A stretch of DNA of 64,000 nucleotides from a virus. Its lineage: Duplodnaviria > Caudoviricetes. A program made the translations under genes and the position numbers. The stretch covers positions 1,617 to 65,616 of IMG/VR virus record IMGVR_UViG_3300025012_000084; one strand, 5' to 3'. Positions 11,466 to 58,958 of the stretch are shown in pieces. Position 1 is the first letter of the stretch. Every line of letters starts with the position of its first letter. Under the pieces are notes generated by a model. That model was not told where the DNA came from. It did not search any database and saw only the letters and a program-made list of their open reading frames with translations.

Positions 11466-11849
11466 ATGCCACGGCTTACTGAGCGAGAGCGGGAAGTCAT
11501 AGCGCTCACGTCGGAGGGGATGAGCGCGAAGGAGACCGCGCAGCGTCTCGGCATATCGCACCGCACAGTCGAGGATCACCACAAAAATGTGATGCGAAAA
11601 TTAGAGGCTAGAAATATTGTGGCTGCATGCTGTTCAGCACTAAAATTAGGGCTTGTTTCTGTCATGCTATACGCGGGTTTTTCGTTTTTTGGTGCCGATG
11701 ACAAGACGTCAGAAGAGTTTGTAGTTGATGCGGTTGACGCGTCTGTTGTATCGTGCAATAAGACGGATAGTCCGTCATCTAGTGTAGAGGAGATAGAAGA
11801 TGTCGAAAACGTCGAGAAAAGTCCCGGCTGCGAACAAAAGCGGCGGTAA
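11466..11849 (+). CDS. LuxR/GerE-type HTH protein
   Basis: LTEREREVIAL..EGMSAKETAQRLGISHRTVEDH..NVMRKL. Confidence 0.8.
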   Translation: MPRLTEREREVIALTSEGMSAKETAQRLGISHRTVEDHHKNVMRKLEARNIVAACCSALKLGLVSVMLYAGFSFFGADDKTSEEFVVDAVDASVVSCNKTDSPSSSVEEIEDVENVEKSPGCEQKRR

Positions 11850-12003
11850 GCGGATGTCATGGCCTGCTGGGGTTGTAAAGCTGCCGAAGGTCCGAGTACA
11901 GAAAAAACCCCCTCGCGGAGGCTATGTCTGATACGTAGTTTTGCGGGTGGCTGCGGATCCAGACAAGGTGCAGACTATGACCACCTAAATACAGGAGGTG
12001 GTC

Positions 12004-13314
12004 ATGGCATATTCATTCATTCTACCGAGCATATCACCAACCGCAAACGGTGATGGTTCGTTGATCGGCAGCGTCAACGAGACCGACTTCACCGCGTCAT
12101 TCAACGACAAGCACATTTCCGATGTTGTTTATGTCTACCGAAAAAATGTAGCCGGTCAATCGTTCAGCTTCGACGACATATCCACGGCAGCGGGTAACGA
12201 TACAACCTCTGATTTCCTTCCGTTCGGCACAAATGCGCAGATGAGCGCGGGGGATGAACTGTATATCTCATGCGACCACAATCAGGAAGAGCTATTCTTC
12301 AAGATCGACACGCCAGGGGTGTGGACTGGCACACTGGACATCAAGTATTCCAGCAACGGGACAACCGCAAACGCGACATTGCAAGGAGTTGTCGATAACT
12401 CAAACGGCTTCAGGAATTCCGCCGGGGTTTACCGAATATCATTTACCAAGCCAACCGACATTCAGGCATTCTCTCCAGTTCCGGGCGACATACTTTCAAA
12501 GAAATGGTTTGTGTTCAAGCCGACCATTACCGCAGTTACAACCGCGCCGATCCTTTCGCGGGTATGGATCCACCACGACCAGCACCTGCTCACCGATGTG
12601 ACCACAGCAGCAAATGACGTGAGCGTCCCATCTTCAACGCCTGAGACGTTTTTCCCGACCGTCGATTCCGCGCATTATTTTTCGTTCGCAAACCCTGCAA
12701 TGGGTTTGGTCAGGAACGTGCATCAGGCCTCTGCCAACGTGCGCACACGGCAGCTTGAGTATTACGCCAACGACAACATATGGAAGCCGTTGCAGAATAT
12801 CTCCGACCCATCGAACGACTACAAGGCCGGTTCACTGACCTATTCTGCAACCCCGGTGCAATACATCGTCGGCTGGTCTGTGCCGACCGACTGGAGTTCC
12901 AAGACGCTTGAGTTCAATACAAGCAGCGGCACGGTGAACAGCACGGGCTACTGGATAAGGAACCGGACAGCATCTGTGCAGGCATACGGCCCGGCGCAAT
13001 CGACCAAATACACCATCCGAGCCAAGCAGTTCGGAAATTCCAACACGTCAGGTTATCAAGTTCCCGTCGCCACGACGCTTCGCATGATAACGATTGACGA
13101 GCCTTTGAGTATGAGCGGCAGCGGCGCGGTGACGTTGCAGATATCCAATTTATCGACGGGAGCATCCGCTACGGCGACGATACCCGCCAGCCCGACCTGG
13201 CCGCTGAACCTTGACGTGGCAGACTTGAGCCTTGCTGCGGACAACAGGTTTGGCCTGTTCTACAACTCCGGTACTCGCACGTTCACGTCCGCGCCATTAA
13301 CCCTGCACACATAA
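12004..13314 (+). CDS. Putative virion/tail-associated beta-rich protein
   Basis: AGGAGG RBS; precedes second fibre gene. Confidence 0.55.
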   Translation: MAYSFILPSISPTANGDGSLIGSVNETDFTASFNDKHISDVVYVYRKNVAGQSFSFDDISTAAGNDTTSDFLPFGTNAQMSAGDELYISCDHNQEELFFKIDTPGVWTGTLDIKYSSNGTTANATLQGVVDNSNGFRNSAGVYRISFTKPTDIQAFSPVPGDILSKKWFVFKPTITAVTTAPILSRVWIHHDQHLLTDVTTAANDVSVPSSTPETFFPTVDSAHYFSFANPAMGLVRNVHQASANVRTRQLEYYANDNIWKPLQNISDPSNDYKAGSLTYSATPVQYIVGWSVPTDWSSKTLEFNTSSGTVNSTGYWIRNRTASVQAYGPAQSTKYTIRAKQFGNSNTSGYQVPVATTLRMITIDEPLSMSGSGAVTLQISNLSTGASATATIPASPTWPLNLDVADLSLAADNRFGLFYNSGTRTFTSAPLTLHT

Positions 13315-26040: not shown

Positions 26041-29000
26041 ATGGCTCAGAGGCTTCTGGCACTGCCTGACGGCAACAAGATCGAGTACGACGACGAGAAG
26101 TATTCGATATACACGGCTCTTGACGCCGCTCGGATACAATTCCCAGGGTCATTCCCGGTAGATGACACGGCAAAACCGTCAGCGTGGAGGCGCGTTCCTG
26201 ACATCGGAATCGCTGCGCTAAAAACCATGGTGGCGGTTCCAGAGATGGTTACCGGAATTGCCGACATCCCGACCGGAGGCGCTTTCGGCAAGGCTGTTGA
26301 GTCGTCAGGAGTACAGTTTGCGGAGACGCAGAAGATACTCGATACCTTGTACAGCCCGCAGCAACAGGCCGCGAACGCCGCGCTAAGAGACGCTGATGGG
26401 TTTCTGGCAACACTCGCTGCCGGTGCGTCCAACCCAAGCTCCGTCATGGCTGTTATCGGGGAGTCTGTCGGCCCTATGCTGGCAGGTAGTGTCTACGCTA
26501 GGGGCATAAGGTCTTTATATGGAATTGGAGCAGCGCCAGCCGCGTCCATCGGAGAAGGTCTTGCCATGACGGGGAGCGCTGCCGAGGGTATCCGGCAGCA
26601 GACGGAGACGGGGTACCTATCTCCGGAACAATCCTTGGCAGCACTCGGATCCGGTGTCGGAGGAGCGCTTACAGGCTACGCTGGAGCGAAGGCATCCAAG
26701 GCAATGGGTGTGACCGACATCGACGTAGCGATGGCCGAGGGTGTTGCCGGGGCTACGTCAAAAAGAGCGTTGATCGCGCGCCTGGCGGCTGGCGGGGTGT
26801 CTGAAGGCGCGTTCGAGGAGATGCCTCAATCAGCGCAAGAACAGATATGGTCGAACTACGCGCTTGGCAAGCCTCTGATGGAAGGTGTGCCGGAATCTAT
26901 GGCTACAGGTCTGATGGCCGGCACTGGCATGGGCGCTGCCGCAAACATCCTGCCGAAAGCTGGAACACCTGTTCCTTCGCCACAAGATGTCGTCCCCCCA
27001 GCTCAACCAGATGCAGCTCTTCCAGCTCCACCCGCAGGAAGTGTACAGGACATGTTTTCTGGGGAGTACGGGGTTCCGCCGCAAGAGCCTGCGCCAGAGA
27101 TGGTGCCTGACATAGAGGTGTCTCCAGACCAAGCCTCACTGCAATTCCCCACGATAACCCAAGATGCTTTTGCCGGATTATTGACCACTAGGGAAGGGAC
27201 TCAGACCGCGCTAGACTATATCAAGAACTCTGTCCCTGACGGTGTCCCAGGAAAAGACGAGGCGCTGAAGCTGTACCAGAAAAAACTCGACTCATATATT
27301 GCGGCTGAGGCAGAGACCGAGCGAGAGGGCAAGCTAGCGGCTGAGTCAGCATTTACTTCTGCTGTCCCGTTACCTACCGGAGAGATTAAGGCTCCAAGGT
27401 CTCCCGATGGGATAACGCTGACAAAAGAGATGCTGGTAAACGCCGGTATTCATCGCGGCAACAAAAAGTTGCAGAAAGTGCAGGACGACCTGTTGGCGCA
27501 CTCTGACATGGCTGAGAATGCGGAGTACATTCGAAGTGTGTTGGACGGCTTCGAGGAGGGTGTGCGCTCACTCCCAGACGCGGCTAGGGCGGAGGTGTTG
27601 GTTCGAGGGATGGATTCTATACGGAATCAGATCAGCGCTGCGGAGAAGAAAAAAAGTGATGTTGACGCAGCATGGCGAGCGCAGGAAAAGTCCGCTACGG
27701 CGCAGACGCTCAAGAGAGTCAACGAGTCAGTGATCGGCAGAGGGCTGCAAGGGTTGGATGTTCTTTCCAGCGGCAGCTCCGCCCGTCAGGAAGCAGAAGC
27801 TGCGCAGAAGCAGTTGGACGAGCAGTCGTTCGCACAGTTGCAAAAAGAGATGGCTGTTCCAGGTACGCAGTTCGGTCTTCAAGGAGAGATAACACCTCCT
27901 GGCGCAACACCGCCCACGACTGCACAGGTAGCGTCGGCAGATACTTTCGAGCAAAAAACTGCTGCGATGTTTTCCACCCCTAGGACGCCAGGGAAAATAG
28001 CCGTTCCGACAAAAGACGCGTTGCAGCCTCGACAAGAGGAAGCTGGAGGACTAGATAAAGTAGCGCCTAAAGCCAGTAAAATAGGCGGAGTTGAGCGGCA
28101 AGAGACTAGCAAACTGATTAGCGCTCAAGCAGTAGTAGCGGCGCTCAACACCATTTCAATAAAAGAAAAAACCACTGCGGCTGGCAAAAAAGCGCGTCAG
28201 TACCGGCAGTCAGCCATGAGTCCGAACTCGACAGACGCAGATTTAGCTGTGGCAGCTACTTTTGTGCAAGAGTACGAGGCCAAGGCAGAACCAAAGGCCA
28301 AGGCAGAACCAAAAGCCAAGGCAGAACCAAAGGCCAAGGCAGAACCAAAGGCCAAGGCAGAACCAAAGGCCAAGGCAGAACCAAAGGCCAAGGCAGAACC
28401 AAAGGCAGCCCGCGAGGTGGAAGACATTGAAGTCGATCTGGCTGATGCAGCAATATCAGGTACTGACGCCGAGATAAGCGATCTTCGGAAAGAGCTGGCT
28501 GTAGCCAAGGCGCGCAGCGGGCGAGTGAAACTCGGTGGGCGCGCGGAAGACTCGAAGGAGACAGCTGCGGCTGTAACCGAGGAAAACAAGGGGCGAGTGT
28601 CTCGGACAGCGATGTCCGCCACCACCAAACTCGTGCCGCCAAAACACCTTATCGCCGCGACCAGAAAAATGGTGGAAAACATTTTGCGCGGATGGATTAA
28701 CCCGCCGATAGTCCGAGTGGTGTCACTAGCCGATTTGTCCGCTGATGATCTGGCGTTTGCCGTGGGGGATGCTGAGTCACCAGCAGCTTACGGATGGATT
28801 GACGGAGACGGAGTCATTACGCTGATACACGACCACCTTAGCACTTTGAGCGACGTAAAAGCAACGCTATTCCATGAAGCTCTCGGGCATTACGGCCTTC
28901 GCAGTAAGTTTGGGGCTGACCTCAACAGGCTGTTACAGGACATATACGACACCAACCCAAAACTTCGCGCGATGGCAGATCGGCAGATCGAACTCGGTAC

Positions 29001-32000
29001 AGCGACCGAGGCTGTAGGCGGAATGGAGGAGGTGTTGGCCGACTCGCAAATGAGCCGTGGAGTTGACCAGACTGTTATAGGTCGAATCGTTTCTTTGGTC
29101 AGAAATTTCGCCAGAGATATGGGCATGAGGTTTTCATACTCCGAAAATGACGTTCGGTCGATACTCAGGCAGGCGCAACGTGCGGTGGAAAAAGGTGGTG
29201 TGCGCCCGGTGTCGGCGAGAGCGGCAATCGTTTCCAAGAGATCTGCGGTCGGGCGCATAGGGGAGGTGCTAGGGATACATATGCCGGGAGTAAAGAAAAC
29301 ATCTCTTGCTCAGGCTGTAGGTGCTCAGAACAGCGCTATAAAAGCTGTCATAGCCTCTCCGTGGGCGCGAGTATTGTCGTCTAAACTGGACACAATGCTC
29401 CTTTATGGCATGACCATGTCGCAGATCGGAGAGGTGTATAGCGGGCTATTTAAAAAAGGAGGGCTGCGCGCTGTGATTAGCGCTGTAGAAGACCTGTCGT
29501 CCACCAGGATGAAGTACATAAAGCAAGGCGACGCCATCGGCAACCAATTTCTGCGAGATGTCGATCTCGAATTTCGCGCGCTGGCGAACGACATGATGGC
29601 CCGGTCTACGAAGGACGGTATATTCCCGGACAAAACGTTCGAGGAAAACGCGGCCCTTGGAACTGTGACCGAAGACCGACGTGATGCGTATGACGACATC
29701 GCTACAGAGTATGCTGCCCTGAAACGAGGTATGGACGCTAGGACACCTGGGTCAGGACAGAAGTTTGAGAACGTCTACCGCGCCATGTACACGCACGGAA
29801 AGTTTTTGTATGACGAGAAACTGCGCCAGACAGAGGAGAATATCGGGGATCTATTCAAAAAACAGAAAGCTGTTGCCACTGCCGCCATCGCAAAAAATCC
29901 ATCTAGAGAAAACAAGGCGGCACTGCGCAGTCTCGACCGAGACCTCAAGGTGTTCCAGGAGAAACTTGGTGTGTTGCGTAACCGAGTCGCAGGGCCGTAC
30001 TTTCCACTGGCTCGATTCGGAAACCATATCGTCACGATGGCATCAAAGGACTACGAGACTGCCGAGGAGGAGGTTGACGCCCTGCGCAAGCAGTTGGAGC
30101 CGATCGAGTCGCTGGTGGATGAAGACCCTTCGGATGCCAACAAGGCCGAGCTCAAGGCGTTGCGCGAGAAATACTCCGACGCGAAGAAGACGTTGGAGAA
30201 ACTGACCGCGAGTCCGGATGACTACTATGTCGAGGTGTTCGAGGGTGAGGCTGACGCGCTGAGAGCATTTGACGAGATGGCTGCCGACGCGGAGGAGAAG
30301 GGTGAAGGCGCTATCGTTCGCAAAACTCTGGCCAAAGATTATGAGGGGCGTGATTCCGTGCCGGCCACGCGGGAGTTCATGGACAAGATCAGCTCTGCGG
30401 TGACCGGAACTATGTCTGCACAAGAGGCTTCAAGGTTCAACACTCTGATGGCGACCGTGATGACCGAGATGTCTCTGAGCGACACAGTGCGCCGCCAGTT
30501 ACGCCGGAAGAATGTATCTGGGCATGACAAGGATATGTTCAGAGGGTTCAGCCGTATGGTCAGTTCCGACGCGCACTTCCTGGCCAACCTGGCTCACAGA
30601 CAGCACATATCCGAGGCGCTATCTGACATGAAGCTGGAAGCGGATACTGTTCGTGGCGACAACTCCAAGCAGATAAAAGTCTTGAACGTAATGTCCAAGC
30701 ATATCGACGGTCAAACAGACTACGCTGGCAAGAACTTGGCATCAAATATAACCTCGTGGACGTCTGTGTGGATGCTGCTCACGTCACCCGCATACATCGC
30801 CTCGAACATGACCCAGCCGTGGATTGTATCTCTGCCGCTGCTGGCGGCAGATTCAAATGTGGCTTCCGCCGTCGCCGCGCTCAACAAGGGTCTGAGTGAG
30901 GCCATGAGCGTCGTAAAGCTATCGGCTGAAGCCGGAGAAGACACCGGCTTCATAAAGAAGTGGTCTAACGTACTGGTCGATGTTGAAGTGGTGCGGGCGC
31001 AGCTCGGAGATGAGGCAGCCGACCTGATAAACCACATGCTGGATAACCAGCTAATCGACGTCTCGCTGTCCTCAGATGCGGGTCTCAACAGCAACGCGGG
31101 TTCCGGCATAAAGGACGCTGTTCTAAAGGCCGTCGGGTCTGCTCCGCACCTGACTGAAGTCACGAACCGGATAGGCACCGCTCTGGCAGCATTCAGTCTG
31201 GCGCGTCGAGAGAACCCTAATGCATCGAAAGACGAACTGTACTCCTACGTCAAAAAAGTCCTTGACAACACACACTTCAACTACTCGGCGGATAACGAGC
31301 CGCTTGCATGGAAAAAGCTGCCGTTTGCGCATGTACTGTTGCAGTTCAAGAAATACCAGGAAGGTATGCTGTATCTGGTGTTCAACAACATAGCCACAGC
31401 TGTTAGCCGTAATCCTGACGTCACGCTGAAAGAGCGCAAGGCAGCGCGCGCGCTGCTAGGGTATCTGGCGGGGACGCATTTTGTGGCCGCCGGAGCTATA
31501 GGAGTGCCTCTGTCAGGGGCTGTTATGGGTGTAATCAATGCCGCCATGGCCGCACTTGGCGGGGACGATGAGCCGTGGGATTCGGCGACTGAGCTGCACG
31601 ATGGCATTGCAGAAGTGTTCGGAGATGATTTCGCGACCATCATTTCTAAAGGGCTTCCAGCGTATCTTGGGCTAGACCTTTCACAAAAGCTCGGATCCGG
31701 CGACATCGCCTCGTTCACGAGGTTCACCGACGACAAGGCCCAAGGAAAAGAGTGGTATAAATCCATGTTGGTAAACTCCATGGGGCCATTCTTTGGGGGG
31801 CTGGCGCCCAGGGCATTCGACGGCGCAAACTTCCTGTTGCACGGTGACCTGTGGAAGGCGTCCGAGAAATTCGCCCCTTCGATAGTCTCAAGCACGATGA
31901 AGGCGTACAGATTCGCTGACGAGGGTCTGACCACCATGTATGGAAATGTCGCCATCCCAGCGGAGAGCTTTGGAGCACACGAGATATTCGGCAAAGCGCT

Positions 32001-32310
32001 GGGGTTCACGCCAACGGTTGAGACCGCGTACTACGACGAGAAGTCCAAGCAGGCGCGAATTTCCGGATACTACGACGAGCAGGCGACTGAGATCACCCAG
32101 CAATACATAGCCGCGCGCGAGTCGGGAGAAGGTATGCCGGAGGTGATGCAGGAGCTTAGAGACATAAATGCAGAGAGAGCCGAAAAAGGCGGTAAGCCGA
32201 TTCCGTTCAGCCGACTGCAAAAGGCGTTCAACGAAAAACAGATCTACGCGAAAGAGAGAAATCCTGCCGGCGTCAGAGTGCGTAAATCCGAGGCGTGGAT
32301 GATGGACTAG
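26041..32310 (+). CDS. Large polyvalent / internal virion protein (PLxRFG domain, HExxH zincin-like motif)
   Basis: 2089 aa; FHEALGH and YFPLARFG motifs. Confidence 0.75.
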   Translation: MAQRLLALPDGNKIEYDDEKYSIYTALDAARIQFPGSFPVDDTAKPSAWRRVPDIGIAALKTMVAVPEMVTGIADIPTGGAFGKAVESSGVQFAETQKILDTLYSPQQQAANAALRDADGFLATLAAGASNPSSVMAVIGESVGPMLAGSVYARGIRSLYGIGAAPAASIGEGLAMTGSAAEGIRQQTETGYLSPEQSLAALGSGVGGALTGYAGAKASKAMGVTDIDVAMAEGVAGATSKRALIARLAAGGVSEGAFEEMPQSAQEQIWSNYALGKPLMEGVPESMATGLMAGTGMGAAANILPKAGTPVPSPQDVVPPAQPDAALPAPPAGSVQDMFSGEYGVPPQEPAPEMVPDIEVSPDQASLQFPTITQDAFAGLLTTREGTQTALDYIKNSVPDGVPGKDEALKLYQKKLDSYIAAEAETEREGKLAAESAFTSAVPLPTGEIKAPRSPDGITLTKEMLVNAGIHRGNKKLQKVQDDLLAHSDMAENAEYIRSVLDGFEEGVRSLPDAARAEVLVRGMDSIRNQISAAEKKKSDVDAAWRAQEKSATAQTLKRVNESVIGRGLQGLDVLSSGSSARQEAEAAQKQLDEQSFAQLQKEMAVPGTQFGLQGEITPPGATPPTTAQVASADTFEQKTAAMFSTPRTPGKIAVPTKDALQPRQEEAGGLDKVAPKASKIGGVERQETSKLISAQAVVAALNTISIKEKTTAAGKKARQYRQSAMSPNSTDADLAVAATFVQEYEAKAEPKAKAEPKAKAEPKAKAEPKAKAEPKAKAEPKAKAEPKAAREVEDIEVDLADAAISGTDAEISDLRKELAVAKARSGRVKLGGRAEDSKETAAAVTEENKGRVSRTAMSATTKLVPPKHLIAATRKMVENILRGWINPPIVRVVSLADLSADDLAFAVGDAESPAAYGWIDGDGVITLIHDHLSTLSDVKATLFHEALGHYGLRSKFGADLNRLLQDIYDTNPKLRAMADRQIELGTATEAVGGMEEVLADSQMSRGVDQTVIGRIVSLVRNFARDMGMRFSYSENDVRSILRQAQRAVEKGGVRPVSARAAIVSKRSAVGRIGEVLGIHMPGVKKTSLAQAVGAQNSAIKAVIASPWARVLSSKLDTMLLYGMTMSQIGEVYSGLFKKGGLRAVISAVEDLSSTRMKYIKQGDAIGNQFLRDVDLEFRALANDMMARSTKDGIFPDKTFEENAALGTVTEDRRDAYDDIATEYAALKRGMDARTPGSGQKFENVYRAMYTHGKFLYDEKLRQTEENIGDLFKKQKAVATAAIAKNPSRENKAALRSLDRDLKVFQEKLGVLRNRVAGPYFPLARFGNHIVTMASKDYETAEEEVDALRKQLEPIESLVDEDPSDANKAELKALREKYSDAKKTLEKLTASPDDYYVEVFEGEADALRAFDEMAADAEEKGEGAIVRKTLAKDYEGRDSVPATREFMDKISSAVTGTMSAQEASRFNTLMATVMTEMSLSDTVRRQLRRKNVSGHDKDMFRGFSRMVSSDAHFLANLAHRQHISEALSDMKLEADTVRGDNSKQIKVLNVMSKHIDGQTDYAGKNLASNITSWTSVWMLLTSPAYIASNMTQPWIVSLPLLAADSNVASAVAALNKGLSEAMSVVKLSAEAGEDTGFIKKWSNVLVDVEVVRAQLGDEAADLINHMLDNQLIDVSLSSDAGLNSNAGSGIKDAVLKAVGSAPHLTEVTNRIGTALAAFSLARRENPNASKDELYSYVKKVLDNTHFNYSADNEPLAWKKLPFAHVLLQFKKYQEGMLYLVFNNIATAVSRNPDVTLKERKAARALLGYLAGTHFVAAGAIGVPLSGAVMGVINAAMAALGGDDEPWDSATELHDGIAEVFGDDFATIISKGLPAYLGLDLSQKLGSGDIASFTRFTDDKAQGKEWYKSMLVNSMGPFFGGLAPRAFDGANFLLHGDLWKASEKFAPSIVSSTMKAYRFADEGLTTMYGNVAIPAESFGAHEIFGKALGFTPTVETAYYDEKSKQARISGYYDEQATEITQQYIAARESGEGMPEVMQELRDINAERAEKGGKPIPFSRLQKAFNEKQIYAKERNPAGVRVRKSEAWMMD
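28279..28404 (+). repeat. 18-bp coding tandem repeat (AKAEPK x7)
   Basis: GCCAAGGCAGAACCAAAG x7, one variant base. Confidence 0.95.
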
Positions 32311-46553: not shown

Positions 46554-46655
46554 TTTTATGCTCCTTTTGTTGTGTAAACTAATAGCTGGAATAGGTGTAA
46601 AACTGCCTTCGTTACAGGATATACCCCTAAATCGGTGCCTAAGATACGTTAGAGG

Positions 46656-46889
46656 TCAACACACTGGGCACCCGCATAAAAATCCATGAGGGCAATATGC
46701 TGCCGCTTCCGCCTCGCACATTTCGTCTACGCACGCAGGGTTGTCGCACCACAAGTATTTATTCCCGCAAGGGCAAATGGACGGGTCTTTGACCTCTAAC
46801 CCTCCGCTCAAGTTCGCTCCGGCTTCGCCTGCGCGGGACTGCGCGCCAGCGGGGTTCCTTTCAATTTCATTCGTTGCTGCCATGTTCAT
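46656..46889 (-). CDS. Cassette gene: Cys-rich protein
   Basis: AAGGAG RBS and ATG inside the attC1 loop; 8 Cys. Confidence 0.65.
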   Translation of the reverse strand: MNMAATNEIERNPAGAQSRAGEAGANLSGGLEVKDPSICPCGNKYLWCDNPACVDEMCEAEAAAYCPHGFLCGCPVC

Positions 46890-46940
46890 ATCTCCTTCAA
46901 AGTTTTGTGAAGCGCGCAGTCCCTTAGCTACACGTTAGAA
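46794..46940 (+). repeat. attC-like site 1 (147 bp)
   Basis: CTCTAAC CCTCC GCTCAAG ... 12-bp stem GGGACTGCGCGC/GCGCGCAGTCCC ... CTTAGC TACAC GTTAGAA. Confidence 0.85.
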
Positions 46941-47263
46941 CCCATCATGAAGCGTCCAGCCTCACGGTTCCATACCGCATCAATCGCAAGCCTGTTTAGG
47001 TCTTCACTGGCACGCGGATCGTCAGCTTCACAACTCACCCATCCGCTTCCCGGTATTAACTTGGCATACCACCCGAATTCTCGGCATTCCATTTCCCCCG
47101 GATATATACATGTCCATTTTATTGAAGGCAGCGCGTGTTCTTCGCAGTCGCACGATATGCGCTGCTCTCCACAATTTGCGCACCGTTCAACATCGCATCC
47201 GGGTTGGTGTTGCTCTCTGGGCGGCACTCCGCAATCCGGGCAATTTCGCAGTTCGTTTCGCAT
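46928..47263 (-). CDS. Cassette gene: Zn-binding protein
   Basis: CPDCGV...H..GCDVERC..CG.Q.ISCDC; ends SNV* within attC1. Confidence 0.7.
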   Translation of the reverse strand: MRNELRNCPDCGVPPREQHQPGCDVERCANCGEQRISCDCEEHALPSIKWTCIYPGEMECREFGWYAKLIPGSGWVSCEADDPRASEDLNRLAIDAVWNREAGRFMMGSNV

Positions 47264-47283
47264 CGCGTTTCTCCGTAGTTGTG

Positions 47284-47346
47284 TTCTAACTTTCCGCTCA
47301 AGCGGGGCTGCGCGCTTTTGCGCAGTCCCTTAGCTACACGTTGGAC
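47284..47346 (+). repeat. attC-like site 2 (63 bp)
   Basis: TTCTAAC TTTCC GCTCAAG ... CTTAGC TACAC GTTGGAC. Confidence 0.9.
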
Positions 47347-47534
47347 ACTTTTCTATCCTTGCAAGAGTTCGACCAATGGCAATTCCCTTTTTGCTCCCAA
47401 GCGCAGTATGGAGGGTAATCGCATTTGCCCTTATTCTCGTAACGCTCCCAAAATGGTTTGCTGGTGTCCAACCCGCCGTTCAACTCGAACTCCGCGCCAG
47501 CGTGGTCGTTTACAGGTTTCATTGTGTCTGCCAT
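47334..47534 (-). CDS. Cassette gene: small Cys-containing protein
   Basis: AAGGA RBS and ATG in the attC3 loop; ends SNV* within attC2. Confidence 0.6.
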   Translation of the reverse strand: MADTMKPVNDHAGAEFELNGGLDTSKPFWERYENKGKCDYPPYCAWEQKGNCHWSNSCKDRKVSNV

Positions 47535-47591
47535 GATTATTTCCTTGTTGAAGTGTTTAGTTGCGCGGAGCCGGTTAACTCTACGTTGGAC
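47466..47591 (+). repeat. attC-like site 3 (126 bp)
   Basis: GTCCAAC CCGCC GTTCAAC ... CTCCGCGC/GCGCGGAG ... GTTAAC TCTAC GTTGGAC. Confidence 0.88.
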
Positions 47592-47595
47592 ACCT

Positions 47596-47853
47596 TCATC
47601 CAAAAGTTGCGGATATTTCTTCGCACTGTGTTTTGATGTCCGTCAAAAATGCCCGTGCTCCGTCAAAAGTCATGCTGCATAATCCACCTCCTGCTTTTAT
47701 GCCAAGCTCTTCTATCACAGCCAACAACATTTCGGTTTCGCGCACATGCTGCGCAGAGAGTGATAGGTATTTGTTTTTGTACTCGCCGTCGGTGTCCAAC
47801 CCGGCGTTCGAGCGCACGGGCAACGGCGCGGCTTCTTTCACAGTTTCATTCAT
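47596..47853 (-). CDS. Cassette gene: hypothetical protein
   Basis: AGGAG RBS and ATG in the attC4 loop. Confidence 0.65.
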   Translation of the reverse strand: MNETVKEAAPLPVRSNAGLDTDGEYKNKYLSLSAQHVRETEMLLAVIEELGIKAGGGLCSMTFDGARAFLTDIKTQCEEISATFG

Positions 47854-47898
47854 GGTTTCTCCTCGCGCCGTTCCCCGGCGCTCAACTCTACGTTAGGC
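47794..47898 (+). repeat. attC-like site 4 (105 bp)
   Basis: GTCCAAC CCGGC GTTCGAG ... AACGGCGCG/CGCGCCGTT ... CTCAAC TCTAC GTTAGGC. Confidence 0.9.
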
Positions 47899-48074
47899 GT
47901 CTTGTCCCGTCCGAGCCAAGTGCACCATGCAGCTATTGCGGCACCCCCCCACCACGGCAGATCAATCCAGTGGTCGCGCACATGCTGGATGTATCCTTCC
48001 AGCCCGTACCAATTTTGGATCATCATCACCACACCAAGGGCGGTCGCTGCCCCCATTGCAAATTGCCTATTCAT
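47850..48074 (-). CDS. Cassette gene: 2-TM membrane protein
   Basis: AAGGA RBS; two hydrophobic segments; tail PNVELS.. runs through attC4. Confidence 0.6.
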   Translation of the reverse strand: MNRQFAMGAATALGVVMMIQNWYGLEGYIQHVRDHWIDLPWWGGAAIAAWCTWLGRDKTPNVELSAGERREEKP

Positions 48075-48103
48075 CGACGCTTCCTTTCTCCGAATCACGA
48101 AGT

Positions 48104-48129
48104 GCGCGCCCCTCAACTACACGTTGGAC
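48104..48129 (+). repeat. attC-like right half (left half lost)
   Basis: GCGCGCCC CTCAAC TACAC GTTGGAC. Confidence 0.7.
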
Positions 48130-48869
48130 ACCACTTCGTTCCATACTGTCGGCTGTCCGGTAACGCTCTCCAAAAAGCACCCATCCAATTTTTCTGGTCG
48201 AACGTACTTTGCAAGGAAGTCCACAACCCAATGTCGCTCGCCACCTTTGCCGGGGTCAATGAGTTCGTTCCGCTCTACGCGCCACATCGCTCCCTCAATC
48301 GGGTCAATCGCGCCGTGATTGCCGTACTCGCCAAGCCGCTTCATTGCCTCTTCAATGCTCAACGCATCCCCGATATGGATAGTGTGCGGTAAAACAAAAC
48401 GCCCGCTTATTCTGGATTGCAGTTCTTCGTGGGTTGCGCGCTTCATTCCTCTCATCAGGTCAAAGGCCACAAACGGCTCATGCGGCAGCTTGTAGCGCGT
48501 ACCGTGAGCCTGCAACAGCCATTCACCCGCCAGCCGTTCGCCGTCGGCCAAAACCTCTGCAAACCGCGCTTCGTTTGCGGAAACCCACTCCCCGAATTTA
48601 TGGTGTTGCATGTATGGCGAGGTGTGCGCCAAGTACCCTGCACGTGTCAGCGCCAGTATTTCTCCGTTGATCTTCGCCACCCCAACATTCGACCCGTCCA
48701 GTTTTTCTTGGACGATGATGCGGTCGTGTTTGTCGCGTACCTTTTCATTGCAAATGCGCTCTTGCCCTTCGTGGCAGCTATGATCCCCCGGCCCCAGTCT
48801 CGACCCAGGAAGGTGTGCAATGCTCCCGTAATTTTTACCACCCAAAGGTTTTGCGTTCTTCTTTTCCAT
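48117..48869 (-). CDS. Cassette gene: RNA ligase (Rnl2-like nucleotidyltransferase)
   Basis: Motif I QEKLDGSN, GEW, FVAFD, EGAMWR, AKYV; AGGAG RBS. Confidence 0.85.
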   Translation of the reverse strand: MEKKNAKPLGGKNYGSIAHLPGSRLGPGDHSCHEGQERICNEKVRDKHDRIIVQEKLDGSNVGVAKINGEILALTRAGYLAHTSPYMQHHKFGEWVSANEARFAEVLADGERLAGEWLLQAHGTRYKLPHEPFVAFDLMRGMKRATHEELQSRISGRFVLPHTIHIGDALSIEEAMKRLGEYGNHGAIDPIEGAMWRVERNELIDPGKGGERHWVVDFLAKYVRPEKLDGCFLESVTGQPTVWNEVVSNV

Positions 48870-48886
48870 TTTCTCGGCTCTCCTAG

Positions 48887-49276
48887 TTAAAATCTGTCCA
48901 ACCCTACGTTCGAGAGCGACGGCGCAAAAGCGCGGCTTCTTTCACACTTTCCGTTCGAGCGCGCCGCCCACCACGCCTCAAATTCTTCGTATGTTTTATT
49001 TTTAACGCAGTACCCGTGCATGTGCCATGCACGGCTTTTTTCTTTTTCCGGCACCGCATCACTAACCGCTCTCCATATCGCATTACATTCAGGGTCAACG
49101 TGCTTTTGTTCGTCGGTCATCGAATCCCAACCATAAGGCTTTCCGATCGGGAGGTTTTCCGGCCATCTGAAACAATTTAGCTCGCAATACCAAGCCGCCA
49201 CTGTTTCGACAGGAAAATCGGCTAACCTAACATTCAACGCGGCTTCCTTTACGTTCTCTAGTTTCTGTTCGTTCAT
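48887..49276 (-). CDS. Cassette gene: hypothetical protein
   Basis: AAGGAG RBS in attC loop; both termini attC-derived. Confidence 0.6.
   Translation of the reverse strand: MNEQKLENVKEAALNVRLADFPVETVAAWYCELNCFRWPENLPIGKPYGWDSMTDEQKHVDPECNAIWRAVSDAVPEKEKSRAWHMHGYCVKNKTYEEFEAWWAARSNGKCERSRAFAPSLSNVGLDRF
48896..48995 (+). repeat. attC-like site, left arm intact, right arm degenerate
   Basis: GTCCAAC CCTAC GTTCGAG ...; possible remnant CTCAAA TTCTTC GTATG. Confidence 0.6.
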
Positions 49277-49327
49277 TTCTTCGTTACTCCTTCCGAGTCA
49301 GCGCAGCCGGCTAACTCTACGTTAGAC
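49220..49327 (+). repeat. attC-like site (108 bp, diverged L boxes)
   Basis: GGCTAAC CTAAC ATTCAAC GCGGCT ... AGCCG GCTAAC TCTAC GTTAGAC. Confidence 0.65.
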
Positions 49328-49539
49328 ACCTCTTGCCACGGGTTCAGTTTCTCGCCTCGATAAACATGACCCTGCACATTTTCCATGCTGTAATTTTTTT
49401 CGTTTGCGTCGCTTACGCGCATCAGCGCAAAAAAATATGGCTGCGGGTACGGATTAGGAAAAGTGTTCGCCATTTCCCACCCATCGTTCACCATGATGTT
49501 GATAATTCGAGTATCGCCTTCTACGAGTTCATATCTCAT
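49273..49539 (-). CDS. Cassette gene: hypothetical protein
   Basis: GGAG RBS; tail SNVELAG.. through attC; ATGA overlap. Confidence 0.6.
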   Translation of the reverse strand: MRYELVEGDTRIINIMVNDGWEMANTFPNPYPQPYFFALMRVSDANEKNYSMENVQGHVYRGEKLNPWQEVSNVELAGCADSEGVTKK

Positions 49540-49562
49540 GTATATCTCCGTTACTACGAGTT

Positions 49563-49618
49563 GTCCAACCCTACGCCCAACCGGACTGGCCTACGGCCCG
49601 GTTATTTTCACGTTATGC
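49563..49618 (+). repeat. attC-like site (56 bp)
   Basis: GTCCAAC CCTAC GCCCAACCGG .. GGCC TAC GGCC CGGTTA .. CAC GTTATGC. Confidence 0.75.
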
Positions 49619-49970
49619 GCCTAGTACAGCGCGTATTAAAGTAGACCGCTCCGTCAGCGTTCTCCCGGTAGATAAAACAACCCGCAGATGCACAGCTTGG
49701 TATGTGGCGGCACCAATAAAAAACCATTTGGCTCTCATGTCCATCGTTGTCTTCGATGAGCATGAAATGACCGGGCTTGATTTCCTTGAGCCGGGTGCCT
49801 TCGACTTGCTTTGCCAGCTTCGCGGCCTTTGGGTTGCAGCTGACCTTCTTTGTCTTGCAATTCACTGGATCGCCGGAAATCGTCAGGGCGCCAACAAGAA
49901 CAACTTCAGCCAATTCCGTAGTGATTTCAACGGGGCCGATGCCGGTGATTTTGATGGTTGCTTGGGTCAT
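49608..49970 (-). CDS. Cassette gene: hypothetical protein
   Basis: AAGGAG RBS; stop in the neighbouring attC spacer. Confidence 0.6.
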   Translation of the reverse strand: MTQATIKITGIGPVEITTELAEVVLVGALTISGDPVNCKTKKVSCNPKAAKLAKQVEGTRLKEIKPGHFMLIEDNDGHESQMVFYWCRHIPSCASAGCFIYRENADGAVYFNTRCTRRIT

Positions 49971-49998
49971 TTGAATCTCCTTTGTTGTCTGCTTGGGA

Positions 49999-50028
49999 GC
50001 GCCGCGCCCCTTAATTCAAACGTCGGGC
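49999..50028 (+). repeat. attC-like right half with variant core GTCGGGC
   Basis: GCGCCGCGCCC CTTAAT TCAAAC GTCGGGC. Confidence 0.55.
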
Positions 50029-50046
50029 GTCATCCTTGTGAACGCG

Positions 50047-50199
50047 TTAGCCACCATTAAGCACGGCAATCCCGTATACAATCACCCAAGCGCCCGCAAC
50101 AGTTAAAGCGGCTGGGACGCTCCATGCCAAGCCAGCGGCGGCGGAAATCATTAGCGCACCAACAGATAGCATAAGCCAGCCTTTTACGATTTGTTTCAT
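50047..50199 (-). CDS. Cassette gene: small 2-TM membrane protein
   Basis: MKQIVKGWLMLSVGALM...; TAA stop overlaps the core site. Confidence 0.55.
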   Translation of the reverse strand: MKQIVKGWLMLSVGALMISAAAGLAWSVPAALTVAGAWVIVYGIAVLNGG

Positions 50200-50240
50200 C
50201 ACGAAAATCCCTTTAAAAATACCGCTCTTCTTGGGTAGGC

Positions 50241-50265
50241 GGCTAACCCTACGCTCAACCTCGTT
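50241..50265 (+). repeat. attC-like left half (array end)
   Basis: GGCTAAC CCTAC GCTCAAC; 9/10 complementary to GTTAGCCACC at 50046. Confidence 0.65.
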
Positions 50266-50494
50266 TAATGAGAATTCCATCCCGCTTTATTAGTCCGGCG
50301 CGTTCAAAAAATACCATGCACTTACCGAACTCATCCTCGCTGCGCCAGTCTATTCCAAGCAGCTTTAACCCGTATCCGAGCTGCAATCCGTCAATGTTGC
50401 TGATATGCGTCCATGTTGGCGGCAATATCGCTTTTATATTGTCTGCGTTGGCTTCCATCCATTGCCGGTTTCCAAGTGTGTCTTGTAGTCCCAT
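50255..50494 (-). CDS. Hypothetical protein
   Basis: GGAG RBS before MGLQD. Confidence 0.55.
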   Translation of the reverse strand: MGLQDTLGNRQWMEANADNIKAILPPTWTHISNIDGLQLGYGLKLLGIDWRSEDEFGKCMVFFERAGLIKRDGILIKRG

Positions 50495-50666
50495 TTCGTT
50501 CTCCAATTCCTGCAAAATTGACGCACAACCTACGCGAAGTGCCTCGCCAAAATCTGTCGCCGCCTTGATAGCGCAACGAATTTTGCTTTGTCAAAACCAA
50601 TATCTTTTGCTTTGGCTTCGCATTAGTACAAATTCATGTTATACCTCCACAAAAACCCTGTTCATC

Positions 50667-57279: not shown

Positions 57280-57566
57280 TTCATATACTCCTCGAACTCT
57301 GCGCAAAGTTCACGCAGCTTGTTTGATCGAACAGCCCGCGCAGCATCCCGCGCAGCATCCCGCGCAGCATCCCACGCAGCATCCCACGCAGCATCCCGCG
57401 CAGCATCCCACGCAATAGCCCACGCAGCATCCCGCGCAATATCCCACGCAGCCCGCGCAGCCCGCGCAGCCCGCGCAGCAGCCCGTTCTGATTCCAATAT
57501 GCCATCCGCATTCGGCCTGATTCCGCAAGGCGCGCATTCTCGTATTTGATTTAATGCAGGTTTCAT
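57276..57566 (-). CDS. Ala/Trp/Asp repeat protein (DAAW/DAAR)
   Basis: 12-bp and 9-bp coding repeats at about 57333-57484. Confidence 0.6.
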   Translation of the reverse strand: MKPALNQIRECAPCGIRPNADGILESERAAARAARAARAAWDIARDAAWAIAWDAARDAAWDAAWDAARDAARDAARAVRSNKLRELCAEFEEYMK

Positions 57567-58408: not shown

Positions 58409-58524
58409 AGCCAATCACACACAGCCAGCATGGTTATTAGGAAAAAGTTGTGTTCTGATTCAATCACTTACGTTTTGGAAAAAGTTCAAAGAGCTGTACC
58501 CATGCTGGCTGTGTGTGATTGGCT
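58409..58524. repeat. Perfect 25-bp inverted repeat with 66-bp spacer
   Basis: AGCCAATCACACACAGCCAGCATGG / CCATGCTGGCTGTGTGTGATTGGCT. Confidence 0.9.
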
Positions 58525-58958
58525 TGCGCGCAACTTACTGAGTCGATTAAGGAATTTTTCAAAAAAGGGGTATAAAGTCATGAGCGCGGTTATTATGTAA
58601 ACCATATATATAGACTCTCTCTCTCCTCTCTCTCCTCTCTCTCCTCTCTCTTATGCCATAGGGGGTATTCATATCTTATATTTATAGACTTTATAGATTA
58701 AAATAAATAAATAAATTGAATTGGAACAGATGGTTATACAACAAGCCAATCCCATAATGCCAACGTGGGTACGGCTCTCTAGCCCTGTTTTCGCGCTGTA
58801 TGCATAAGAGCCTTTCCCTATGGATTCAAAGTGTTGCCACACCATCTTATCCCTATGGATTAGAGGGGTATTGGCTTTTTACCTGACTTTATACTGTCGC
58901 GCTTCAATTTACTACAATGACGCGATTGCGCGGTGCAAAGAGGTCTGTTGGGAGTTGC

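What the first reader, a model, noticed from the sequence alone, without database searches (positions are those of the whole stretch)
46794..49618. Cassette genes are antisense to attC, with RBS and start codons inside the attC loop
Seen: the unpaired C in L'' (GCT-C-AAG/CTTAGC, GTT-C-AAC/GTTAAC, GTT-C-GAG/CTCAAC) marks + as the attC top strand, yet every gene is on the - strand, the reverse of typical bacterial cassettes. In four long sites the loop holds the gene's RBS and ATG (46889, 47534, 47853, 49276), so N-termini are attC-encoded (..LSGGLE, ..LNGGLD, ..SNAGLD, ..LNVRLA). Short sites (63 and 56 bp) belong to cassettes with an RBS outside the attC. Inference: a phage-adapted cassette class read from upstream phage early promoters rather than a Pc, in which the recombination site doubles as a portable translation-initiation module.
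Basis: partly seen in the sequence, partly recalled or inferred. Interest (0 to 1): 0.88.

Follow-up and report, generated by a model that had tools for sequence, protein, structure and literature searches.

The report
Mirror-image integron cassettes in a phage
A complete groundwater phage genome carries a row of integron-type gene cassettes built back to front, so that the folding recombination site sits in front of each gene and often holds its ribosome-binding site and start codon, the reverse of the same sites in bacterial integrons.

Summary
A covariance model of this attC family finds 7 full sites in the window, all on the + strand. All array genes lie on the - strand. The same model puts the aadA1 attC of plasmid R100, and 11 sites beside an IntI gene in a Gallionella contig, on the coding strand.

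Four long sites (105-147 nt) hold a Shine-Dalgarno motif and an ATG in the loop. The ORF then reads out through the L''/R'' arm.

The pattern is family-wide:
- In 25 viral contigs, 90 cassettes are antisense, 2 sense and 43 unclear.
- In 80 bacterial loci with the same attC family, 67 are sense, 7 antisense and 71 unclear.
- 29 of 45 long viral sites open a bottom-strand ORF from the loop.
- Unrelated genes share one attC-encoded leader, and one gene carries different leaders.

Recognisable cargo is DNA methylases and RNA ligases.

Recombination itself, the promoters and the true protein starts remain inferred. Five literature searches found phage CALINs (Qi 2023) but not this polarity. Earlier notes of this scan report the same layout on other phage DNA. 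I class it as a new variant of a known kind.

The parts
46640..46653 (+). Terminal half-site: an L'-like box, a spacer and a GTTAGAG core at the downstream end of the array. No left arm.
   Evidence: Read; pattern match; not detected by model R1.
46656..46889 (-). Cassette gene g1 (Cys-rich, 75-77 aa). It starts in the loop of site S1, at ATG 46889 or, with better SD spacing, 46883.
   Evidence: no Pfam or PHROG hit.
46794..46940 (+). attC site S1, long (147 nt). The loop holds AAGGAG (46892-46897) and the g1 start.
   Evidence: Strict scan; R1 26.4 bits, E 5.7e-4.
46928..47263 (-). Cassette gene g2 (111 aa, Cys-rich). Its RBS (GGAG) lies just outside site S2.
47284..47346 (+). attC site S2, short (63 nt). 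Its inner hairpin is inverted relative to the family consensus.
   Evidence: R1 59.9 bits (this site was in the training set); inner hairpin matches on the - strand.
47334..47534 (-). Cassette gene g3 (66 aa). It starts in the loop of S3 and its first 23 residues are attC-encoded. The stop lies in the spacer of S2.
   Evidence: the leader is shared with L023 3999-4340.
47466..47591 (+). attC site S3, long (126 nt). The loop holds AAGGA and ATG 47534.
   Evidence: R1 61.6 bits, E 2.3e-12; 85% identical to L023 4272-4393.
47596..47853 (-). Cassette gene g4 (85 aa). It starts in the loop of S4.
   Evidence: codon score antisense 18.6 against sense 8.2.
47794..47898 (+). attC site S4, long (105 nt). 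The loop holds GAGGAG and ATG 47853.
   Evidence: R1 43 bits; DNA fold z -3.9 with the start region in a 33-nt loop.
47850..48074 (-). Cassette gene g5 (74 aa, hydrophobic). It reads through the right arm of S4 and ends in an ATGA overlap with the g4 start.
48100..48129 (+). Right arm only (inner stem, L', spacer, R') of a decayed site.
   Evidence: Repeat family D3; arm scan; not a full R1 hit.
48117..48869 (-). Cassette gene g6, an RNA ligase (250 aa). Its RBS lies outside the site.
   Evidence: PF09414, 67 bits; phrog_38169 2e-51; codon score 42 against 5.
48896..48959 (+). Decayed short attC site, overlapped by the 3' end of g7.
   Evidence: R1 29 bits, E 1.4e-4.
48887..49276 (-). Cassette gene g7 (129 aa). 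It starts in the loop of the site at 49220-49327.
   Evidence: no relative other than itself in the protein search.
49220..49327 (+). attC site, long (108 nt), with a degenerate L''. The loop holds AAGGAG and ATG 49276.
   Evidence: R1 29 bits, E 1.4e-4.
49273..49539 (-). Cassette gene g8 (88 aa). Its RBS lies outside the 56-nt site, and it ends in an ATGA overlap with the g7 start.
   Evidence: codon score 19 against 1.8.
49563..49618 (+). Weak short attC site (56 nt).
   Evidence: R1 20.2 bits, E 0.018.
49998..50032 (+).
   Evidence: 94% identical to L023 1025-1059; arm scan.
50240..50262 (+). Left arm only (R'', spacer, L'') of a decayed site, at the upstream end of the array.
   Evidence: Arm scan.

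Best explanation
Window 46.6-50.3 kb is a cluster of genuine integron-type attC sites with no integron integrase (a CALIN). It sits inside the leftward replication/early gene block of a complete 65.6-kb phage. The sites belong to an attC family that also fills IntI-associated integrons of groundwater Betaproteobacteria such as Gallionellaceae and Nitrosomonadales.

In the phage the cassettes have the mirror polarity. The coding strand is the attC bottom strand, the strand that folds better and that IntI normally recombines. Each site therefore lies 5' of its gene instead of 3'.

Translation signals are arranged in one of two ways. Short sites are followed at once by a Shine-Dalgarno motif and a start codon. 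Long sites are long because their loop carries the Shine-Dalgarno motif, the ATG and about 20 codons that read out through the L''/spacer/R'' arm, giving leaders that end in ..LNxGL... The preceding gene often ends inside the 5' arm, twice in an ATGA overlap, so translation is probably coupled across the hairpin.

Shown here: the site structure and its covariation, the polarity, the loop starts as open reading frames with SD motifs, the viral-versus-bacterial contrast, and leader swapping.

Inferred: that the host IntI shuffles these cassettes, that phage promoters upstream drive them, and that the cargo (RNA ligase here; DNA methylases and RNA ligase in sister arrays) serves counter-defence.
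For: Sites are attC-type. On 23 aligned sites, 91.5% of cells pair, 16 of 22 pairs show compensatory change, and slid controls give 29-45% pairing. Model R1 finds 7 of 7 full window sites on the + strand.

Orientation controls. R1 finds the R100 aadA1 attC at 49.7 bits on the coding strand, 3' of aadA1. In Gallionella contig L218, intI (TIGR02249, 496 bits) sits beside 11 attC sites with the genes sense.

Strand asymmetry is the same in both sets. The bottom strand is the more stable in 113 of 124 viral and 93 of 99 bacterial short sites. It is the more stable in 6 of 7 window sites.

Gene polarity. Viral: 90 antisense, 2 sense, 43 unclear in 25 contigs, of which 23 have only antisense calls. 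Bacterial: 67 sense, 7 antisense, 71 unclear in 80 loci.

The antisense ORFs are real genes. Six of 9 large ones have Pfam domains over the cut-off, as does the window RNA ligase.

Loop starts. 29 of 45 long viral sites have a bottom-strand loop ATG opening an ORF of at least 50 codons that leaves the site, 22 of them with an SD-like motif. The top strand gives 5, none with an SD-like motif. Short sites give 1 of 128.

Leader modularity.

The window is a phage. It has TerL, a major head protein, PolA and a primase-helicase, CheckV completeness is 100%, and there is no tyrosine recombinase candidate. A relative with PolA 74% identical has 3 sites in the same polarity upstream of polA.
Against: - No recombination evidence for this phage. 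Laid contigs showed no cassette-precise deletion.
- Three of the 7 sites score under 30 bits, and several arms stand alone, so the right part of the array looks decayed and may no longer recombine.
- In the few homologous cassette pairs, the upstream leader-bearing attC is not co-conserved with its gene. That does not fit a stable 'attC + gene' unit.
- Site 47284-47346 has an inverted inner hairpin, and its + strand folds better.
- Promoter-like matches are at chance level, 11 against 11.2 expected.
- The codon-score strand caller was right in only 307 of 361 validation comparisons and left about a third to a half of cassettes uncalled.
- R1 orientation and the strand-asymmetry measures are not fully independent of each other.
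Confidence: 0.75

Rival explanations
1. The hairpins are self-spreading intergenic modules (attC-only or 'empty' cassettes carrying a translation-initiation region) that have colonised the gaps between ordinary phage early genes. The genes never were cassettes. The polarity bias reflects which orientation is tolerated in, or useful to, an mRNA.
For: Gene bodies are conserved while both flanking sites differ: L218 against L071, L067 against L084, and the RNA ligase homologue bounded at 48121 and 48869. The same leader site occurs in front of unrelated genes. The phage has no integrase. The purine-rich bottom-strand spacers (GGAGG, GAAAG) look SD-like.
Against: An identical gene flanked by sites at identical positions occurs inside a bona fide IntI integron and in a viral contig. 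Homology ends at the R' core in 3 of 5 pairs that involve a viral contig, as cassette exchange predicts. Homology ending at R'' is also seen among canonical bacterial arrays, so it does not discriminate between the readings.
Confidence: 0.15
2. The orientation call is wrong for phage sites: the + strand is the one recombined. The cassettes would then be ordinary (gene followed by its attC), and the loop starts would belong to the neighbouring cassette.
For: On the coding strand every gene ends in or next to an RYYYAAC core, as canonical cassettes do. In the pair L023/L071 the downstream site, not the upstream one, is conserved with the gene.
Against: The position of the bulged bases, the folding-energy asymmetry and the GC skew match those of bacterial sites of the same family, where genes are sense. 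[quoted passage not shown] Under this rival, 29 loop-borne starts would be separated from their genes at every recombination.
Confidence: 0.07
3. The array is a dead relic: one bacterial CALIN captured backwards, now decaying, with the antisense ORFs partly spurious.
For: Site scores fall from left to right, and several arms stand alone. Nine of the 10 array genes tested have no Pfam or PHROG match.
Against: 23 of 25 viral contigs, from several phage lineages, show the same polarity with different genes. The antisense ORFs carry SD motifs, ATGA couplings and real domains. The sense strand of the window cassettes scores lower.
Confidence: 0.03

Closest known systems
CALINs (clusters of attC sites lacking an integron integrase) in phage genomes. 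Qi, Rajabal, Ghaly, Tetu, Gillings 2023, PMC9892861; outline, passages and section 3.4 read.
   Same: An attC array with no intI in a phage genome. DNA methyltransferases are among the cargo. That paper showed five of six tested phage-borne attC sites to be recombined by IntI1.
   Different: [quoted passage not shown] In the text I read it does not report genes antisense to attC or start codons inside the sites. Its arrays have 2-4 sites, whereas here the window has 7 and sister contigs have up to 14. Its supplements were not visible to me.
Canonical integron cassettes: class 1 aadA1/attC in R100, and the Gallionella chromosomal integron L218.
   Same: The same site architecture: R''/L''/loop/L'/R', bulged bases on the '' arm, and 5-6 nt unpaired spacers. 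One covariance model detects all of them.
   Different: There the gene lies on the top strand, 5' of its site, and is read from Pc beside intI. Here the gene lies on the bottom strand, 3' of its site, there is no intI or attI, and the start codon can lie in the loop.
Reverse-oriented cassettes in sedentary chromosomal integrons, mostly toxin-antitoxin cassettes with their own promoters
   Same: The genes lie opposite to the array direction.
   Different: Those are a minority within sense arrays and carry their own promoters. Here the whole array is reversed and co-oriented with the surrounding phage operon. In my bacterial sample only 7 of 74 called cassettes were antisense.
T4-type PeSL 'mobile regulatory cassettes', promoter-early stem-loops that mediate modular shuffling of phage early genes
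   Same: Repeated stem-loops between small early phage genes, associated with gene shuffling and carrying expression signals.
   Different: PeSLs carry promoters and are thought to act by homologous recombination. The sites here have the full attC anatomy, are shared with IntI integrons and carry translation signals, and no promoter was detected.
Translation signals supplied by integron recombination sites or by fused cassettes, such as the attI1 ORF-11 initiation region (recalled) and fused cassettes in P. aeruginosa (PMC4670013, search listing only).
   Same: A recombination site or its neighbourhood contributes ribosome-binding and start signals to a cassette gene.
   Different: Those cases concern attI or rare fusions on the top strand. 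Here it is a regular feature of the attC loop on the bottom strand.

Membership tests
integron attC recombination site | Inverse core sites R'' (RYYYAAC) and R' (GTTRRRY) at the two ends | tested here: met
   AAC/GTT are invariant and R-box pairing is 90% in 23 family sites.
integron attC recombination site | An L''/L' helix with extrahelical base(s) on the '' arm only, and an unpaired central spacer | tested here: met
   A bulged C after the third L'' pair and 5/5-nt spacers in the 4 well-formed window sites. The same columns are unpaired in alignment A1.
integron attC recombination site | Structure conserved and sequence variable (covariation), with a variable loop length | tested here: met
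   16 of 22 pairs show compensatory change. Lengths in the window run from 56 to 147 nt.
integron attC recombination site | Bottom strand more stable, and the top strand with negative GC skew | tested here: met
   6 of 7 window sites, and 113 of 124 viral short sites. The exception is 47284-47346.
integron attC recombination site | Recombined by an integron integrase | not testable with these tools
   Indirect only. The same family lies beside IntI in 5 of 5 bacterial genomes tested and in L218.
complete integron | An intI gene and an attI site next to the array | tested here: not met
   TIGR02249 gives 0 candidates in the whole 65.6-kb virus record.
CALIN | At least two attC sites in one orientation with no intI nearby | tested here: met
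   7 sites on the + strand and no intI.
canonical integron gene cassette | A promoterless ORF on the attC top strand, followed by its attC | tested here: not met
   All array ORFs are on the bottom strand. The control cassettes meet the feature.
T4-type PeSL regulatory cassette | An early promoter joined to the stem-loop | tested here: inconclusive
   The sigma-70-type scan is at chance level and places no site-associated promoter on the - strand. Other promoter types are not covered.

The most novel reading that the evidence does not exclude
Phages of integron-bearing hosts keep a mirror-image cassette pool that uses the host's own IntI and attC family to shuffle counter-defence and other early genes.

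The reversed polarity would do three things:
- It puts the recombinogenic bottom strand on the non-template strand, which transcription exposes.
- It lets the purine-rich bottom-strand site serve as a portable ribosome-binding and start module.
- It makes phage cassettes silent when parked in a bacterial integron, and bacterial cassettes silent in a phage. One example of a phage-type cassette parked in a bacterial integron is seen in L218.

The two pools would then share one recombination system but stay separate in expression.
Probability: 0.35. Interest if true: 0.9.

Novelty: new variant of a known kind. Interest (0 to 1): 0.8.

Why it matters
Integron biology rests on the rule that cassettes are promoterless genes followed by their attC and inserted so that Pc reads them. 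Here the same recombination sites are used systematically the other way round in phages, with translation signals built into the site.

If host integrases act on these arrays, several things follow:
- Phages would have access to a site-specific gene-shuffling system for accessory genes. The recognisable ones are orphan DNA methylases and RNA ligases, which are plausible counter-defence functions. This would mirror the recent finding that bacterial integron cassettes store anti-phage defence systems (preprints seen in the search listing only).
- Integron surveys that assume sense ORFs would mis-annotate phage arrays.
- Phage arrays would become a place to mine unknown anti-defence genes.
- Cases in which gene body and attC have separate histories bear on the old open question of how cassettes are made.

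Tried and rejected
Steps that led nowhere or stayed inconclusive:
- blastn of the array against 50,697 phage records found no match.
- The PolA-based search of viral contigs gave one relative whose contig ended before the array. The metagenome search then gave the longer L220.
- My first strict scan, requiring at least 6 of 7 R-box matches, missed two good sites and was relaxed.
- The left-arm pattern scan returned 57 loci, about the number expected by chance by my own estimate. Only L023, L026, L038 and L055 proved to carry sites.
- Model R1 with filters off missed the long sites. Default filters found them.
- Calling the strand by longest ORF was uninformative, with 88 of 138 intervals unclear. 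It was replaced by codon scoring.
- SD-based choice of starts was noisy and mis-placed the g4 start. It was replaced by the loop-ATG/ORF test.
- I tried to tell which flanking site travels with the gene from homology boundaries. There were only 5 homologous protein pairs and 14 DNA pairs, with ends at both R' and R'' in viral and in bacterial arrays alike, so the result is inconclusive.
- The promoter and terminator scan was at chance level.
- The g7 protein search found only itself, so homologues cannot confirm its start.
- Sequencing runs: no RNA holder is listed. The laid contigs gave no cassette-precise joint. The two joints seen have short sides (20-23 nt) and probably come from other arrays with similar arms.
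- Literature: the searches found no description of antisense phage cassettes or of starts in attC loops.

Rows dropped before counts:
- One partial R1 hit (L091 14704-14736) was left out of the viral table.
- L069, identical to L061, was dropped but is still included.
- Six of the 37 viral loci searched had no hit.

Full report
What the window is. The window is 64,000 of the 65,616 bases of an IMG/VR virus record that CheckV rates 100% complete. It encodes a large terminase, a major head protein, PolA, a primase-helicase, a helicase and a DarB-like giant protein. It has no tyrosine recombinase: the integron-integrase model TIGR02249 found no candidate at all. Genes from about 32 kb to 58 kb all run on the - strand, and the finding lies inside that block.

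The sites. Reading the sequence shows repeated imperfect palindromes with the textbook attC layout: R'' (..YYAAC), a 5-nt spacer, L'' with one extra C, a variable middle, L', a 5-nt spacer, and R' (GTTRR..). A strict structural scan finds four such sites in 64 kb, all on the + strand and all with the bulge in the left arm: 46794-46940, 47284-47346, 47466-47591 and 47794-47898. Shuffled sequence gave 0-2. Searching viral contigs with two right-arm motifs gave 20 and 18 contigs, against a chance expectation below one by my own estimate. I aligned 23 short sites from those contigs. On that alignment 91.5% of cells pair, 16 of 22 pairs show compensatory changes, and slid controls fall to 29-45%. 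The outer boxes had been used to select the sites, but the inner helix had not. A covariance model R1 built from this alignment finds 7 full-length sites in the window, all on the + strand. These are the four above plus 48896-48959, 49220-49327 and 49563-49618, which score 29, 29 and 20 bits. It finds nothing else at E<=1 apart from the inner hairpin of 47284-47346 on the opposite strand. Lone arms at 48100-48129, 49998-50032 and 50240-50262 and a half-site at 46640-46653 extend the array to about 46.6-50.3 kb.

Which strand is 'top'. I did not rely on memory for this. R1 finds the aadA1 attC of plasmid R100 at 49.7 bits on the coding strand of aadA1, just 3' of the gene. A scan of bacterial genomes with a merged arm motif returned at least 120 hits, mostly MAGs of Gallionellaceae, Nitrosomonadales, Sideroxydans, Methylococcaceae and Nitrospirota. 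All 5 such genomes that I tested have an integron integrase far above the curated cut-off. In one Gallionella contig (L218), intI at 11622-12608 (+) is followed leftwards by 11 R1 sites on the - strand, with the genes on the - strand, each ending at its site. That is a canonical integron of the same attC family. So R1's strand equals the coding strand in canonical cassettes, whereas in the window it is the non-coding strand. The physical asymmetry of the sites is the same in both sets. The bottom strand folds better in 113 of 124 viral and 93 of 99 bacterial short sites, and the top-strand GC skew is negative in 117 of 124 and 96 of 99. Passages of Nivina et al. [quoted passage not shown] These measures are partly built into R1, so they are not fully independent of it.

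The genes. Every plausible ORF from 46656 to 50515 is on the - strand. One, at 48117-48869, is an RNA ligase (PF09414 at 67 bits, phrog_38169 at 2e-51). The other nine ORFs tested match no Pfam or PHROG family. Codon scoring of the 6 window intervals antisense and leaves 2 unclear.

In the four long sites the loop carries AAGGAG, AAGGA or GAGGAG 5-11 nt before an ATG (46883/46889, 47534, 47853, 49276), and the frame stays open through the L''/spacer/R'' arm into the gene body. The folded single strand of 47794-47898 puts this region in a 33-nt terminal loop. The two short sites are followed within about 25 nt by GGAG and an ATG outside the site. Two genes (47850-48074 and 49273-49539) read through the 5' arm of the next site and stop in an ATGA overlap with the loop start. 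Two others stop in the spacer next to R'.

Is it general? R1 found 167 hits in 31 of 37 viral loci. I defined a cassette as the interval between neighbouring same-strand sites and scored the best ORF on each strand with a codon model trained on ORFs of at least 300 codons from the same loci. This caller was right in 307 of 361 validation comparisons. The viral set, window included, gave 92 antisense, 2 sense and 44 unclear. After dropping a duplicate locus this becomes 90, 2 and 43 in 25 contigs, of which 23 have only antisense calls. The same procedure on all 80 fetched bacterial loci gave 67 sense, 7 antisense and 71 unclear. Fisher's test on the called cassettes gives 1e-35, although cassettes within one contig are not independent.

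Large antisense ORFs are real genes. Six of 9 have Pfam domains over the cut-off: two N6/N4 DNA methylases, MT-A70, a C5 DNA methylase, a SpoU methylase and an RNA ligase. Large ORFs flanking the arrays in 10 viral loci match PHROG families, with 8 of the 10 carrying a named phage function (RecE-like exonuclease in four, helicases, DNA methyltransferase, portal/adaptor, DarB-like), so several phage lineages are involved. One 58.5-kb viral contig has two arrays in opposite directions (L071 and L072), and in both all cassettes that could be called were antisense. A relative of the window's phage (PolA 74% identical) has three sites in the same polarity upstream of polA, with different genes.

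Long sites as start modules. Of 45 viral sites of 80 nt or more, 29 have a bottom-strand ATG in the loop that opens an ORF of at least 50 codons leaving the site, and 22 of those have an SD-like motif. The top strand gives 5, none with an SD-like motif. Of 128 short sites, 1 does. In the first 40 bacterial loci, long sites are rarer (15 of 114) and only 2 of them have such an ORF. One of those two is a phage-type antisense cassette sitting inside the Gallionella integron (L218 7141-7505), whose gene body matches viral locus L071 closely (89% over the 228-bp blastn match; alignment).

The leaders behave as modules. Window site 47466-47591 is 85% identical to L023 4272-4393, while the genes behind them are unrelated. 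A second pair, L072 and L023, shares only its leader. In the other direction, the shared L218/L071 gene carries two different leader sites that both keep the frame. Leaders use two of the three frames through the arm, so the peptide itself is probably not what is selected.

What remains open. I could not show recombination. The contigs of the groundwater runs that hold this phage gave no cassette-precise deletion. They did show a more abundant 87%-identical RNA ligase whose homology ends at 48121 (the R' core) and at 48869 (the start codon). Homology boundaries between arrays fall at both R' and R'', in bacterial as well as viral arrays, and the leader-bearing site is not co-inherited with its gene in the few pairs available. 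The data therefore do not settle whether 'attC + gene' is the mobile unit, nor whether sites and gene bodies exchange separately. Promoter-like matches are at chance level. The right half of the window's array is decayed. Site 47284-47346 has an inverted inner hairpin.

Literature and earlier notes. Phage CALINs and their recombination by IntI1 are published (Qi et al. 2023). Five full-text searches found no description of the reversed polarity or of loop starts, and supplements were closed. Earlier notes of this scan report the same layout in other phage genomes with other attC families. I did not check those windows. They agree with what I measured here on independent DNA.

Verdict. The family-wide contrast between viral and bacterial arrays makes this a new variant of a known kind. 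The key mechanistic steps, namely integrase action on the bottom strand, loop initiation and the source of transcription, are still inferred.

Noticed in passing
window 47305-47329: The inner hairpin of the short site 47284-47346 is the exact reverse complement of the inner hairpin of several L023 and L060 sites, while its outer boxes keep the usual polarity. This suggests a hairpin-mediated inversion. It is the only window site whose + strand folds better.
   Followed up: partly
L218 7141-7505 (Gallionella MAG contig with intI): A phage-type antisense cassette, with its start in the loop of its own 103-nt site, sits inside an otherwise sense bacterial integron. Its gene body matches viral locus L071 closely (89% over a 228-bp blastn match), with the close match running from the R'' core to the R' core.
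   Followed up: partly
window 48121-48869: In the same groundwater runs, a 1164-nt contig at 3-5 times the phage's depth holds an RNA ligase 87% identical to g6. The homology stops at the R' core on one side and at the start codon on the other.
   Followed up: no
L071 and L072 (one 58.5-kb viral contig): Two attC arrays in opposite directions lie in one phage genome, with 14 sites in L071 and 16 in L072. In both, all cassettes that could be called have genes antisense to the sites.
   Followed up: partly
L079 5225-5836: This is one clear sense-oriented (bacterial-type) cassette ORF of 203 aa in a viral contig. It has no Pfam match.
   Followed up: no
window 46801-46805, 47291-47295; L220 1745-1760: The bottom-strand unpaired spacers of these sites are purine-rich and SD-like (GGAGG, GGAAA/GAAAG). 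In L220 an ATG follows R'' directly, so the spacer itself may act as the ribosome-binding site.
   Followed up: no
L023 83-99 and 1815-1836; window 47264-47283: A conserved stretch (..CTCCGTAGT..) lies just outside R'' of several short sites. It forms the RBS region of the next gene, which suggests that a translation-initiation region is associated with short sites too.
   Followed up: no
window 57308-57485: A 12-nt tandem repeat (about 14 copies) lies upstream in the - strand block.
   Followed up: no
window 58409-58526 and 58490-58778: Long inverted repeats (28 nt at 96% and 37 nt at 81%) lie near the divergence of the two gene blocks.
   Followed up: no
window 26041-32310: A 2089-aa protein matches DarB-like antirestriction PHROGs.
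   Followed up: no
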